A stretch of 62,645 nt of DNA, the filler included, from Babesia bigemina (Eukaryota), in assembly GCF_000981445.1 (NCBI RefSeq). It is 10 parts of 10 records of this genome, joined end to end, with 100 filler letters (N's around TTAATTAATTAA, not from the genome) between each part and the next. Parts side by side here need not be neighbours in the genome. Positions count along the whole stretch, not along the records: positions 33,530 to 36,509 come from NW_012237270.1; positions 36,610 to 42,211 come from NW_012237271.1; positions 42,312 to 55,828 come from NW_012237272.1; 7 more parts are not named here. One strand, given 5' to 3'. The position numbers were made by a program. Below are positions 36,001 through 45,000 of the stretch, one piece after another; position 1 is the stretch's first letter, and the number at the start of each line of letters is the position of its first letter.

Positions 36001-39000
36001 CAGGCCAGTTTTCCTTCCACCCCCCTCCTCCGAGTGGCACGAACGTATAAGCCACGCAATACCGCAAATAATAAATTGCAGAGAGGAACTTGGGGATGCA
36101 CTCCAACAAAGCTTTGACAAGTATATCTGCGTCTCTGATTTCCGCATCGCGGGACATTGAGGCTCCGGATAGAAACTGCTGTTCAGGGACGTAATCATAA
36201 ACCAATTTTTTATAAAATGTATCCACGTGGCCCAGGAAGGTAGACAATGATGATGCGATTTTACTTTGATCGAGATTATTATAATATTTTGCAAGTTTTT
36301 CACGCAATCTGCTGGCAACATGTGATTGCATATCCTTTCCCTTCCCCTCGGTGTTCAACCAATGCAGAAATATCAAACAGTCGCTGAGACTAGTGAGAAT
36401 GATCCCGCCTTTTCGCGCCGCCATCGTGACTTATGAAGCCGTCAACAAAATTCAACCAGTCGCGCTACGCTTACAAAAAGGCAATTAAACCGTCCATACT
36501 GTCTGATATNNNNNNNNNNNNNNNNNNNNNNNNNNNNNNNNNNNNNNNNNNNNTTAATTAATTAANNNNNNNNNNNNNNNNNNNNNNNNNNNNNNNNNNN
36601 NNNNNNNNNCTAGACTGTGAAAAGCAATGAAGAACAAAAATATCCAAATGAATGCTTATAACCTTGTTCCGGGCCTCGAAAAGTTTCTCGGCTTCAACAA
36701 AGATCCCAAAGGCTACGAAGGCAGTGGGATAGTGTACTCCGACCTGGATAGGCTGTGTGACGGGGTGATGGGATTTTTGAGTGGTGTGCTTGGTGCGGTG
36801 AAGGATGAAAATGAAGTGACAACTTATGATAATTACATCACTCCAGATGATAATAAGCTTCAAAAAGTACTAGAAGAGGTAAATAATAATATTGGCTCCG
36901 GGCGTACTGGGCTTGCGGCGTCTGTCGGCGCGGTGAAGGGGTGGTTGGAGGGGTATGAAGGTGAAATGAAAACGAGAACAAAAACAGTGACTGGGCCATT
37001 AGATACAACAATTCGTGACATATATCAATCTGCGGAATATATCAAAACACTGCGTAGTCAAGAATATGATGCCGTCTCAGATAAGTTAGCAGACTGGGCT
37101 GACTCTGTCAATAGCTTAGTGACACAACCGAAATCTTCATTAGATTCACTTAGAGATTTAGATCCTAACCTAAAAAATAAGTTAGAAACCAACGTCTGCG
37201 TAATTTTTAATAGTGTTAATACATTTGTAGAATCCACGAAACTTGACTATAGCGACTTGGTGGCGGTAGCCAGTAGTGTCGATAGAGACCTTACAACGCT
37301 TGAAAGTCAGATTAGTAGCACAGTTACAGAGCAGGTCAGGGTACTTAAGGAAACGGTGACTAAGGGTATTGACGGTCTTCGTATGCTAGTAAAAGAAGAA
37401 CTTGAGAGGAAGGTTAAGCTTTTGACTGACACAGTCTGGAAGTTGCACACTGTTCGACAAAACATTAAGAAGTCCGTTGATGTTATTAATGGAAAATTTG
37501 ATGAAAAAGATACCTCTCCAAATACGGCCTTGGGGGCTGCCAGTTTGGCGCAAAATATTGTCACTAATGCTGCGACGCTCCGAGATGATGATCTTGGCAG
37601 TTTGTGGGCGGAAATACAGTTGGCGCTTACTGGGCTTACCGATGGGATTGCAGATAAGGAAGGTAATCAAGGTCACTTAAATGACATTGTTACTTCTGTA
37701 GGAGAGTACGCAACTAATTTCGAGGAGACATTCAAACAATCAATCAATGATGCGGTTACGGCGATTGTTGACGGAGAGCCGGTGAAACAGTATTTGTATT
37801 CGTATGTTAGCGGGAACAACCACGCAAAAAAATTCAAGGGCCGTTTTACCGCTGCCGATAATGATGCTATTCTCAAGGTATTCCTTTCAATCGTTCAAAA
37901 AAATATTAAAGCAGCACTAACTGCTATTAAAGCCAATCCAAAGCCTGGATCTCAATCCACTGTAGATGGCCATTTACAAAACGTTCATAAGTATCTTAGC
38001 AACTACGCGGAGCAAGTAATACATAAAGTTGCAGATGTAGTAGGGAAAATTCAAAGTGATTTGCAAGATGGCTACGATTTACAGATGACCGATGTATCCG
38101 AATCAGGCTATAATCCGTATCTCAAGTGGGGGGTAGAAGCCGCCCTAACTGAGTTACAGTCGCTTGCGAAAGGCGCGGAAATAGAAATTCAACGATTCAA
38201 ATCAGAGATAAATATGGGAAAGTTGACAGCTGCTATCGACGGTGTTAAAGCACTAGGCGAAGAACTTAAAAAATTAGTTGAGAAACCATTGATCGAAAAA
38301 ATTCAAACTAAGCTTAACAACGATGTGTCAATGCCTGCCGAAAAAATAAAGCAAGGACTTGCTTATGTTATCGACTCAGTTAATATGGAGCTCAGAAACA
38401 TTAGCGCTATCCTAGAAGACAAGAAAGATAAAAACGATAAACACGACAAAAAGCTGGTCGGTGTGAAGAATCAGATTGATGAAAAGACCAACGAACTAAA
38501 CCAACAAGTGACCTCTACCCTGGATGCACAAGTTAGAACATTAAAAGAAGGCACGCTAGAGAAAGCCACTAATCTCTGCCAATCCACAATCACCTCAAAA
38601 GTTACCAGCGATAGTGCCACCGCCAAGAGAAGCATTAAACAGGAGGCCCTGAGAATGTTTGCGGACACCAAAGAGAAAGAGTTGGAGGCGCTCAAAGGAT
38701 TGGTCACTCAGAAATATACAGAAATTGGTGAAATTATTCAGCAAGATCTGGAAAGCGGATTGAAGGGAATGATGGGCAAAATGAAGGCGAATGATACCTA
38801 TCTCGACACGCTACAAAAACAAACGGAAATACGAACAGCCACCACCCAAGTCAGAATGTATTTAGAAGAGTTGCTCCAATACGTCGAAGATCAAGTTAAA
38901 ATCTCAACGGCACAACAAACGAAGAAAGACACTGTTGCATCCACCAAAATTGCTAACGTGAAAACCATGCTCGGCCTTTCGCTCGACGACCTCTCCTCCT

Positions 39001-42000: not shown

Positions 42001-45000
42001 GAAAAACCTCTCGATGGCCATCAACCAGTACGCCCTCAGCGTCATCAACTACTACATCGGCGTGATCCCCATGGACATCACGCATTTCGACAAGATCGAC
42101 CTGGCAGTACGGAGAATAATTAACGCGAAGCACGGACACAAGAAGTGGGCGAACACACAGAGGCTCTACCTCCCCCGGAAAGAGATGGGGAGAGGGCTCC
42201 ACAGCATGGTANNNNNNNNNNNNNNNNNNNNNNNNNNNNNNNNNNNNNNNNNNNNTTAATTAATTAANNNNNNNNNNNNNNNNNNNNNNNNNNNNNNNNN
42301 NNNNNNNNNNNCTCGCATGGTGAATCTACGCGGTCATCTGGATCCTGCCACTGAGGTTCTCCTTCTCCGGAGGGTTGGAAGTGCGCTCGTCGTACTGCAG
42401 GCCGCCGGCACGAAGCCGACCTTCCACTAAGTGCCCAGCAGCATTCTCGGCACGGCTGCAGGAACCCGTACACCACGCTGTGAGCCACAACTATCAGCGA
42501 GATGCTCAGGAATCTCATGAAATCATGACATTGAGCACCTACGGAGGCCGCACATGTGCGACGCTTCTACACCCCTACGAAGGCAGCCAACGCAACACAT
42601 CCCGGCGATACGGGCACTACATGGCGTGTATAGTTTTTGTATACGGTTGTTGTACGGTGGAGTTCGTGTCTATCTCAGTCGCGGACGGTCAGAGCCACCT
42701 TCCTGCTCCACTGGCCGGCGAATGGACGACGAAGAAGGCCCAGCAGCGCGATAATACTGTGTTAATACACTTACTAGAGTATCTACAACAGCTATGCCCC
42801 TAATGCCGACCTATTGCCGAGTTGCCTCATCTGTTGAAGAAGGACCTACAACACCGTCACACAGCACTCAGCAACGAACTCACGTCAGCGTCATCTGGTG
42901 GAGCTGCTTCTGAGGCTTCTTCAGCAGCCCCTTTCTGTCACCCTCCGAGCTGCGTTCTTCCCGGCCATGCTTCAGCGGAGCCGAGGTGGGCCCTCGGGCA
43001 GGCGAGTTCACCTGAACGTACTCATCGCTCTCCTCCACCACGAAGTAGCCGCTGTCCACGTAGGTGTTATCGCGCGTCACCTGCAACCTTTAAGGCGCTT
43101 ATCCGATAAAGCGACACACCTTTTCCACGTAGCTCACTGGGCGGTCATTGCAGCTTGCGTCGTCCAGCTCCATGGCTTCGCAGGGGTCGTCTGAACGCGT
43201 GTGGCGCGGATACGCACCGACTCACCGCACTCAAACAGGGAGCCTTCCAACGCGTCGCTCTGCGATATCGCAGCCGGGGCGACCTGGGATGAGGGTGCCG
43301 CCGCACTGCTGCTGGGCTGCGCCAACTTTTGGGACACGAACGACTGGAAGTCTTTGTGCGTGTTTGCTGCACTCTCGCCTGGCGCTGATGTAGCTATCCT
43401 CTCGACTCTTGGCTGCGTCGGTTGCGTTGCCCCGGGAGCTGCTGCCTGCGCTTGCGCTTCTGCTGGCCGGTGGCTTGGCACGGCGGCCGGAGGCGGCGCA
43501 TCCACCCTAGGCTTCTTAGTGACACCCTCGCTCTTTACGTGCCCATATCCGTTCAGCCCGAATAGCTTCTGCTGGCTCGTTTTGCTTTCCGGAGTGGTGC
43601 GTGCAGCGGGTGTGGCAGCTGGAGCCCTTGCACCGCCGGACGGCACGGAAGGCTTCGGAGTAGGAGCGCACAAGGCGCTGTCACTGAAGGGCGTCATAAC
43701 ACAGCGCGTAGACCTACCCCTGTTTGCCCCGTTCGTATTTGCGTATCCTGATGTTAGGTGTCAGCAGCTGGGCGTAGCTGAAAAGCGGGTCAACAACTGG
43801 CAACTGTCGCCTCACCTAGGAATGTACAGGCTCTCTTTCTCCGAGCAGCGCTTCAGCTCGCCCTCCACCAAATCAGTCTCGTGCTTCCAACACAGCTGAC
43901 TCACTGCGGCTCCCCCGTTTAATGCGCCGACGTACACCGCAAACACAGACGACTTCACATCTGGGTACCTGCTCCGCAGCGCTGCGACGAATGTACTGGA
44001 GAAATCACGAATGCAGTGTGGAGTTATATGGCACCTTGTATTACGCTTCATATCACAATATATGGCGTATGAATATGCAGGCTGCCTGTAACCGCCGTTG
44101 TAACGAACGATGGGTACCCAGTGCAGCAACGGGTATGGTCACCCCGGCTCAGCATGGGTGCGTTGGTGAGCTCGCAACACGTAACAGCCAAGGGGTGTCT
44201 CAGCAGGGTGTCACCATCTACATTGACACGGCAGGACGGAGCAGTGACGTCTAAGCAACTAACCTTCCAAATCAGCCTCGGTCTTGTGAGACAAAACCAC
44301 GTCACCGCCCTCGTCCGAGTGGCATACCGAGTATAGCAAGCCAACGCCTTCCTTGCCACTGGCGAACTCTACGACTGCCCTGCCGCACTGTGTGACCCCA
44401 AATAGTAGCCAACATACCGCTGGGCGCTGCCGAAGTCGACGCCGAGCGAATGGGTGACCACAGCGACGGTGACCTGCTGCTTGTAAAAGCATCAAAAGCG
44501 ACGTACACATTTACAATCGGCGAGCAGCTGCTCTATGACGAGACTCGGAGTCGCCATTCTACGAGCCTTCTATGGAAGTTATAACCGACTCTGGGTGCCA
44601 GGGATAGCGAGGCCATGCTCCACACACTAGCCGATGTGCGGGCGGACAACCTAACGCGGCACAAAATGCCGCCGGAATCGCGCGTAGATAACGAACAAGT
44701 CTACTGTTTCCTGCTGAGCAACCTCAACGACAGGCTGTCCATCGAGGGATTCGCCTACGAGCCCATCAAGCTCGGCGGTGTCTACTGGACGTTGACGGCC
44801 ATTTCGCTCCTTAAGGGCGCAGTTAACGACATTGTGCACCCCAGACTGAACCGCGATCTGGAAACCATAGTCTACGACATTGTCGAGGGCTCCAAGAACG
44901 CGGACGGCGGCTTCGGCAACGCTCCTGGCCACCCCTCCTCTATTATCGCAACTCATGTAAGCGTTCGTCGCGCCGGCAACTTGACGCTACGCAGTATGCT

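What the first reader, a model, noticed from the sequence alone, without database searches (positions are those of the whole stretch)
36610..42211. Intact-looking non-LTR retrotransposon inserted inside a variant antigen (ves1-like) gene of a piroplasm
Seen: the ves ORF loses homology after ...NTLSALQ (~39068). A ~190-nt leader follows, then an uninterrupted >980-aa ORF with all RT motifs (YIDD). Known: piroplasm genomes are generally regarded as nearly free of transposable elements, and single-ORF RLE elements (R2, R4/Dong, CRE/SLACS) often target multicopy genes. Inference: a recent, possibly active element that uses the ves repertoire as its niche and can knock out or rearrange antigen genes.
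Basis: partly seen in the sequence, partly recalled or inferred. Interest (0 to 1): 0.92.

Follow-up and report, generated by a model that had tools for sequence, protein, structure and literature searches.

The report
Retrotransposon nesting in Babesia antigen genes
A retrotransposon interrupts a surface-antigen (ves) gene of the cattle parasite Babesia bigemina; its family clusters at antigen genes in two Babesia species, is likely still mobile, and likely reached these parasites by horizontal transfer from microsporidia.

Summary
Observation confirmed with one correction: the 5.6-kb contig holds only the 5' 3.1 kb of the element, and the endonuclease lies beyond the contig end. Near-identical B. 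bigemina copies encode a full 1347-aa RT + zinc knuckle + restriction-like endonuclease protein (1-4 aa differences), so the family is young. The junction (39068/39070) is the element's true 5' end: an independent run and a B. ovata ves insertion begin at the same point, and an uninterrupted ves1b-class paralog matches 708 of 709 aa up to it. LINE-like elements in Babesia are already in print, so 'TE-free piroplasm' is outdated. Not found in my searches: (1) ves association: 89 of 103 B. caballi RT loci are next to a ves-like gene (21% expected); 10 of 10 chromosomal B. bigemina loci are within two genes; B. ovata is mixed; (2) three different insertion positions inside ves genes, so no fixed target; (3) nesting inside microsporidian elements (AU p=0.0007). 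Best reading: a TPRT element that survives in, or loosely prefers, the dispensable ves islands. True targeting and a role in antigenic variation are not shown.

The parts
36610..42211 (.). Whole 5602-nt contig of a concatenated assembly
   Evidence: Bounded by N runs with a six-frame stop spacer
36621..39068 (+). 5'/middle part of a ves1b-class variant antigen CDS, interrupted
   Evidence: 92% to P0122 overall, 708 of 709 aa identical before the junction; P0122 is in homology module 4, which PMC5660447 calls a ves1b cluster; no Pfam hit
39068..39070 (+). 5' junction of the element
   Evidence: Run X1 contig matches from 39070 with another flank; an X2 contig starts at 39070; B. ovata model P0139 switches from ves to element at the same leader peptide
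39069..39259 (+). 191-nt 5' leader; open in the ves frame (stop at 39285-39287)
   Evidence: 39 of 57 aa identical to B. ovata in that frame; no Rfam match; fold z -0.79
39260..42211 (+). First 983 codons of the 1347-aa retrotransposon ORF, cut by the contig end
   Evidence: 100% identical to P0128, 98.2-100% to 14 B. bigemina member sequences
41177..41902 (+). Reverse transcriptase domain (YIDD at 41711-41722)
   Evidence: Pfam RVT_1 E 1e-30; catalytic Asp invariant in 60 of 60 aligned relatives

Best explanation
The contig holds the 5' part of a single-ORF non-LTR retrotransposon inserted in a ves1b-class antigen gene of B. bigemina; the family is young and likely still mobile by target-primed reverse transcription, likely persists because ves islands tolerate or loosely attract insertions rather than through a fixed target sequence, and likely entered Babesia horizontally from microsporidia. 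Steps: (1, shown in other copies) the 1347-aa protein has RT, CCHC knuckle and PD..E..K endonuclease, no N-terminal zinc finger; (2, inferred from R2 biochemistry) it nicks DNA and reverse-transcribes its own RNA at the nick; (3, shown) this copy separates the ves gene from its 3' half, which carries the conserved membrane-anchor end in the intact paralog, so the allele is predicted to give no anchored VESA1; (4, inferred) in a haploid, gene-dense genome insertions in core genes are purged while one of hundreds of mostly silent ves genes can be lost cheaply; (5, inferred from trees) the donor lineage was microsporidian, plausibly met in an arthropod vector.
For: Full-length copies differ by 1-4 aa of 1347 (8 accessions carry the full length); 24 B. 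bigemina gene models in the RT module; X1 matches 3142 nt with 10 differences but another flank. Family profile aligns with R2 structures through RT, knuckle and endonuclease (E 1e-60), catalytic residues conserved in 59-60 of 60 rows. B. caballi: 89 of 103 RT loci adjacent to a VESA1_N-cluster gene vs 21% of slots, best of 5639 shifts 40; 49 of 103 flanked on both sides vs 8.8%; still enriched inside ves islands (89 of 100 vs 38-68%). B. bigemina: 7 of 10 chromosomal loci adjacent, 10 of 10 within two genes. Insertion positions map to about residue 0, 860 and 1900 of one ves scaffold. Babesia elements form one clade (SH 100) inside Vairimorpha/Hamiltosporidium/Pancytospora elements with Enteropsectra and Dictyocoela outside; placing piroplasms outside is rejected, p-AU 0.0007.
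Against: None of the 4 runs laid bridges this particular junction or covers most of this ves allele, so the insertion rests on one assembly. In B. ovata only 1 of 5 loci examined is clearly ves-linked (neighbours only partly shown). Another B. caballi repeat family (cluster 09) is equally ves-adjacent, 25 of 26. The null counts genes, not bases, and ves genes are long. No 3' junction or target-site duplication was seen, and transposition was not observed. Many tree neighbours are unnamed or labelled as wasp, octopus, mite or bacterial MAG; trees were quick-mode without bootstrap and the outgroup is unnamed.
Confidence: 0.68

Rival explanations
1. True targeting: the element recognises ves DNA or ves-island chromatin and inserts there by preference, like target-specific RLE elements in multicopy genes.
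For: Enrichment persists within ves islands; 12 B. caballi loci lie between two cluster-01 genes; a second partial ves model (P0123), mosaic in its last 90 codons, ends within 2 nt of the same junction; most RLE clades are target-specific (PMC4640811 passages).
Against: Three different positions in ves genes; flanks of the window and X1 junctions are unlike; non-ves neighbours in B. ovata; no N-terminal zinc finger; relatives multiply in T. equi (13 member sequences), which to my recall lacks ves genes.
Confidence: 0.22
2. The ves-element junction is an assembly chimera of a collapsed repeat and a ves read.
For: Small unplaced contig in a ves-rich bin; no independent run bridges the junction.
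Against: The join lies exactly at the element's 5' end as defined by X1, X2 and B. ovata P0139; no other piece of the element lies in the window; chromosome-scale contigs carry ves-element gene fusions (P0124, P0139, P0005).
Confidence: 0.05
3. The element is an ancestral piroplasm family, inherited vertically and lost in B. bovis and most Theileria; the likeness to microsporidia reflects sparse sampling.
For: PMC9141347 proposes ancestral presence with losses as one of two equally parsimonious scenarios; Babesia plus T. equi as one group is not rejected (support 44).
Against: Nesting inside microsporidian diversity; T. equi is closer to unnamed and microsporidian relatives (46-49%) than to B. 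bigemina (40%); no other apicomplexan name among the listed rows.
Confidence: 0.2

Closest known systems
LINE-like elements of B. bigemina, B. ovata, B. divergens and T. equi (PMC9141347); RT cluster 03 of B. caballi (PMC10463595)
   Same: Almost certainly the same families; same species distribution as my protein hits.
   Different: Those papers report presence only; in PMC9141347 the terms ves, horizontal, microsporid, active have no occurrence in the main text. Their TE supplements were not read.
R2 retrotransposons (R2Tg, R2Bm structures)
   Same: Single ORF with RT, linker, CCHC knuckle and PD-(D/E)xK endonuclease in the same order.
   Different: No N-terminal zinc finger motif, no Rfam ribozyme match in the leader, no rDNA or other fixed target.
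Non-LTR elements of microsporidia (Vairimorpha, Hamiltosporidium, Pancytospora, Enteropsectra, Dictyocoela)
   Same: Closest named non-piroplasm relatives, 41-50% identity over the RT region; about 1140-aa single ORF; monophyletic microsporidian non-LTR family reported in PMC3486916 (passages).
   Different: The Babesia protein has about 200 extra low-complexity N-terminal residues with no counterpart in the alignment and lives in an apicomplexan.
Trypanosome ingi/RIME/L1Tc in RHS genes; Giardia Gil elements; Entamoeba EhLINE (all recalled, from no call)
   Same: Retroelements of parasitic protists concentrated in multigene or antigen-gene regions.
   Different: RHS has one conserved hot spot and its elements use an APE endonuclease; here the sites vary and the endonuclease is RLE.

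Membership tests
RLE-encoding non-LTR retrotransposon | Non-LTR-type RT with intact catalytic motifs | tested here: met
   Pfam RVT_1; QGD and YIDD invariant; best PDB matches R2 and L1
RLE-encoding non-LTR retrotransposon | C-terminal CCHC knuckle and PD..(D/E)..K endonuclease | tested here: met
   In full-length copies, not in the window: C1119-C1135, RH1146, PD1202-3, E1218, K1234 conserved and aligned to R2
RLE-encoding non-LTR retrotransposon | Dispersed copies with different flanks | tested here: met
   Window vs X1 flank; 10 chromosomal loci
RLE-encoding non-LTR retrotransposon | 3' tail and target-site duplication or deletion | not testable with these tools
   3' end is beyond the contig; no genome held
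R2 clade | N-terminal zinc finger/Myb and 28S rDNA target | tested here: not met
   No C2H2-like pattern in the first 350 aa; insertions are in ves genes
R4/Dong clade (recalled resemblance) | RT phylogeny grouping with R4 and Dong references | not testable with these tools
   No named R4, Dong, NeSL, HERO or CRE reference was returned by any search; the sister group is unnamed
Target-site-specific element | Same insertion site in homologous target genes | tested here: not met
   Three positions on a ves scaffold; one hint of a shared site
ves1b (BbigVes1b) | Homology to ves1 with conserved C-terminal anchor domain | tested here: met
   Through paralog P0122 (module 4), which aligns with the complete ves1 ORFs at 5201 and 15480 (E 1e-112 or lower); the anchor end is absent from this allele

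The most novel reading that the evidence does not exclude
A microsporidian-derived retrotransposon invaded Babesia in the arthropod vector, became a specialist of the ves repertoire, is co-transcribed with blood-stage ves loci, and acts as an engine of antigen-gene turnover: it inactivates alleles, provides dispersed 4.3-kb homologies for ectopic recombination and supplies the RT long invoked for intron-poor ves1 retrocopies.
Probability: 0.15. Interest if true: 0.88.

Novelty: new variant of a known kind. Interest (0 to 1): 0.6.

Why it matters
Apicomplexa are a standard example of genomes with few or no TEs, and no mechanism is settled for the frequent 'transposition' of ves loci or for the proposed retro-origin of ves1-alpha (both discussed in PMC4066756). 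A young, intact RT family sitting in ves islands makes both questions testable with existing isolates. A likely microsporidian origin would be a cross-kingdom transfer between two intracellular parasites. Practically, these insertions create fused or split ves gene models (P0124, P0139, P0005) that distort repertoire counts, and filled/empty sites are potential strain markers.

Tried and rejected
No whole genome is held, so flanks could not be tabulated at DNA level; a second read-laying around the junction gave no result. No RNA holder listed; X4 is only guessed to be RNA and holds a diverged copy, so it is not used as expression evidence. Uncovered ves part in four runs is not taken as absence. 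A 20-nt 5'-end pattern found one chance match in metagenome contigs (L001, only the 20 nt align). No relatives in bacterial genome or viral contigs. Leader: no Rfam hit, no unusual fold; ribozyme idea unsupported. Single-sequence AlphaFold model unusable (pLDDT 39), not searched. Careful-mode tree did not finish; quick trees used. A candidate 38-nt intron joining leader and RT frames is unsupported: the X4 contig runs across it unspliced. Nine peptides assigned to BBBOND_0308820 in the PR proteome cannot be assigned to the element or the ves part. Earlier findings of this scan: none. Host or tick contamination rejected (chromosomal copies in several species; no such names among hits).

Full report
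What is in the window. The window is ten contigs joined by spacers; the finding is one whole 5602-nt contig. A ves-like frame runs from 36621 to 39287 and an RT ORF from the ATG at 39260 to the contig end. The ves protein is 92% like P0122, a 1766-aa B. bigemina protein, and identical at 708 of 709 residues from 108 to 816; P0122 continues as ves after NTLSALQ while the window does not. P0122 is in homology module 4 of PMC5660447, described there as a ves1b cluster. GC and GC3 jump at the junction. The contig ends 364 codons before the end of the full ORF, so endonuclease and 3' end are missing from the window.

The junction is the element's 5' end. Of 4 runs laid, X1 has a 4608-nt contig matching 39070-42211 with 10 differences and an unrelated flank before 39070; an X2 contig also starts at 39070. 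If the 1174 unmatched nt of the X1 record are the 3' side, the element is about 4.3 kb (inference). The B. ovata model P0139 reads ves, then the same leader peptide, the element, then ves again, the two ves flanks being contiguous on a ves scaffold. No run bridges this junction or covers most of this ves allele, so the specific insertion rests on one assembly.

The family is young and complete elsewhere. The 983 window residues are 98.2-100% identical to the 14 member sequences of two B. bigemina clusters, one being the window's own. Four distinct 1347-aa sequences, under 8 accessions, differ by 1-4 residues; older fragments at 79-87% also exist. A 60-sequence profile aligns with R2 structures through RT, zinc knuckle and endonuclease and the catalytic residues are conserved in 59-60 of 60 rows. 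No N-terminal zinc finger pattern was found. TPRT is inferred from this architecture; activity was not observed. PMC9806345 lists two unplaced-contig genes with RT-like domains as 1931-fold and 128-fold higher in blood stages than kinetes; I did not verify that these tags belong to this family.

Association with ves genes. Using the B. caballi cluster lists (PMC10463595 Table S2), 141 RT-cluster genes collapse to 103 loci; 89 of 103 are adjacent to one of 866 VESA1_N-cluster genes (21% of slots; best of 5639 circular shifts 40), 99 of 103 within two genes, 49 of 103 flanked on both sides (8.8%) (gene order from locus tags, 5880 slots assumed, contig ends ignored). Within ves islands the excess remains. 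Controls: cluster 09, 25 of 26 adjacent; cluster 06, 8 of 44. In B. bigemina the RT module has 25 models, one a myb gene drawn in by a fusion; of the 10 on chromosome-scale contigs 7 are adjacent to a ves-labelled or ves-module gene and all 10 within two genes (only the first five rows per prefix were shown; p 1e-4 to 4e-3 under assumed nulls of 15-25%). In B. ovata 1 of 5 loci examined is inside a ves gene; the other four showed kinase, transporter or core neighbours, with neighbours only partly seen, and a sixth is fused to a myb gene. Insertion points differ: about residue 0, 860 and 1900 of the P0124 ves scaffold. Hence strong regional concentration without a fixed site. Selection against core-gene insertions in a genome that is about 75% coding could produce this; gene-count nulls cannot exclude it.

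Origin. In three protein searches (120 rows listed of 699, 587 and 286) named piroplasm hits were B. bigemina, B. ovata, B. caballi, B. divergens and T. equi; the nearest named others were mostly microsporidia, with some rows labelled octopus, wasp, mite, butterfly or bacterial MAG, which may be contamination (untested); most rows are unnamed. In trees of 96, 46, 139 and 26 rows (rows with short coverage and redundant copies left out) the Babesia elements form one clade within a Vairimorpha/Hamiltosporidium/Pancytospora group, with Enteropsectra and Dictyocoela elements outside. Forcing piroplasms outside the microsporidian radiation costs 42.5 log units, p-AU 0.0007 (group defined by taxonomy but after seeing earlier trees; unnamed outgroup). 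T. equi is unresolved: one group with Babesia is neither shown nor rejected. Horizontal acquisition, once or twice, is the likely reading. Clade assignment to R4/Dong is recalled, not tested.

What is known. PMC9141347 (passages, section 3.2) already reports LINE-like TEs in these species, 0.97% of B. bigemina, without mention of ves, activity or transfer. PMC10463595 (passages, supplement parts 1-5 of 18) notes an RT cluster. PMC4066756 (passages, sections 22 part 1 and 23, supplement search) discusses ves transposition and a retro-origin of ves1-alpha but the passages shown name no element. Also seen: PMC5660447 (passages, one supplement part and four prefix searches), PMC9806345 (passages, section 14 part 1), PMC4640811, PMC3486916, PMC4202319, PMC7313128, PMC4053351 (passages); PMC10975891 and PMC7999288 had no occurrence of my terms. 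Searches found no paper on the ves association or a microsporidian origin; subscription papers, Repbase and the TE supplements of PMC9141347 were not seen and may bear on this.

Verdict. Real feature; the element's existence is known, its niche, youth and likely origin appear unreported. New variant of a known kind, interest 0.6.

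Noticed in passing
window 39049-39066; protein P0123: A second partial ves model, identical to this allele over residues 50-722 and then mosaic, ends within 2 nt of the insertion point: either a second allele carrying the element at the same site or an assembly fork between filled and empty forms.
   Followed up: partly
window 39069-39287: The leader is open in the ves frame in both this insertion and the B. ovata one, with 39 of 57 aa identical; a possible upstream Met and a 38-nt GT-AG intron (39254-39291) would join it to the RT frame, unsupported so far.
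   Followed up: partly
B. caballi BcabD6B2_18120/18130: The dominant expressed ves1c gene (38% of ves1c reads) is directly next to an RT-cluster gene; roughly 16% of ves-like genes have such a neighbour, so one case proves little.
   Followed up: no
B. bigemina CDR94894-94896; B. ovata BOVATA_048210-048230: An element lies beside a myb-like gene in both species although copies are species-specific in sequence: old homogenised insertion or reused site.
   Followed up: no
window 5201-10507 and 15480-21161: Two complete intron-free ves1 ORFs in tandem on one 21-kb contig, ending in the conserved C-terminus; a third, truncated, at 56313-59836.
   Followed up: partly
window 25721-31237: Contig with strong G skew ending in telomere-like repeats; likely subtelomeric.
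   Followed up: no
window 49433-51660: DEAD_2 / Helicase_C_2 helicase gene pieces; ordinary.
   Followed up: no
window 33857-36430 (-): 857-codon ORF with no Pfam match.
   Followed up: no
run X4, window 39232-40920: A diverged copy with 38 substitutions and three single-base gaps in the N-terminal region; several database copies start only at residue 183, suggesting a second subfamily.
   Followed up: no
protein P0199 (unnamed, Logan): 36% identical to the N-terminal half with a similar acidic extension; possibly an element of another piroplasm.
   Followed up: no
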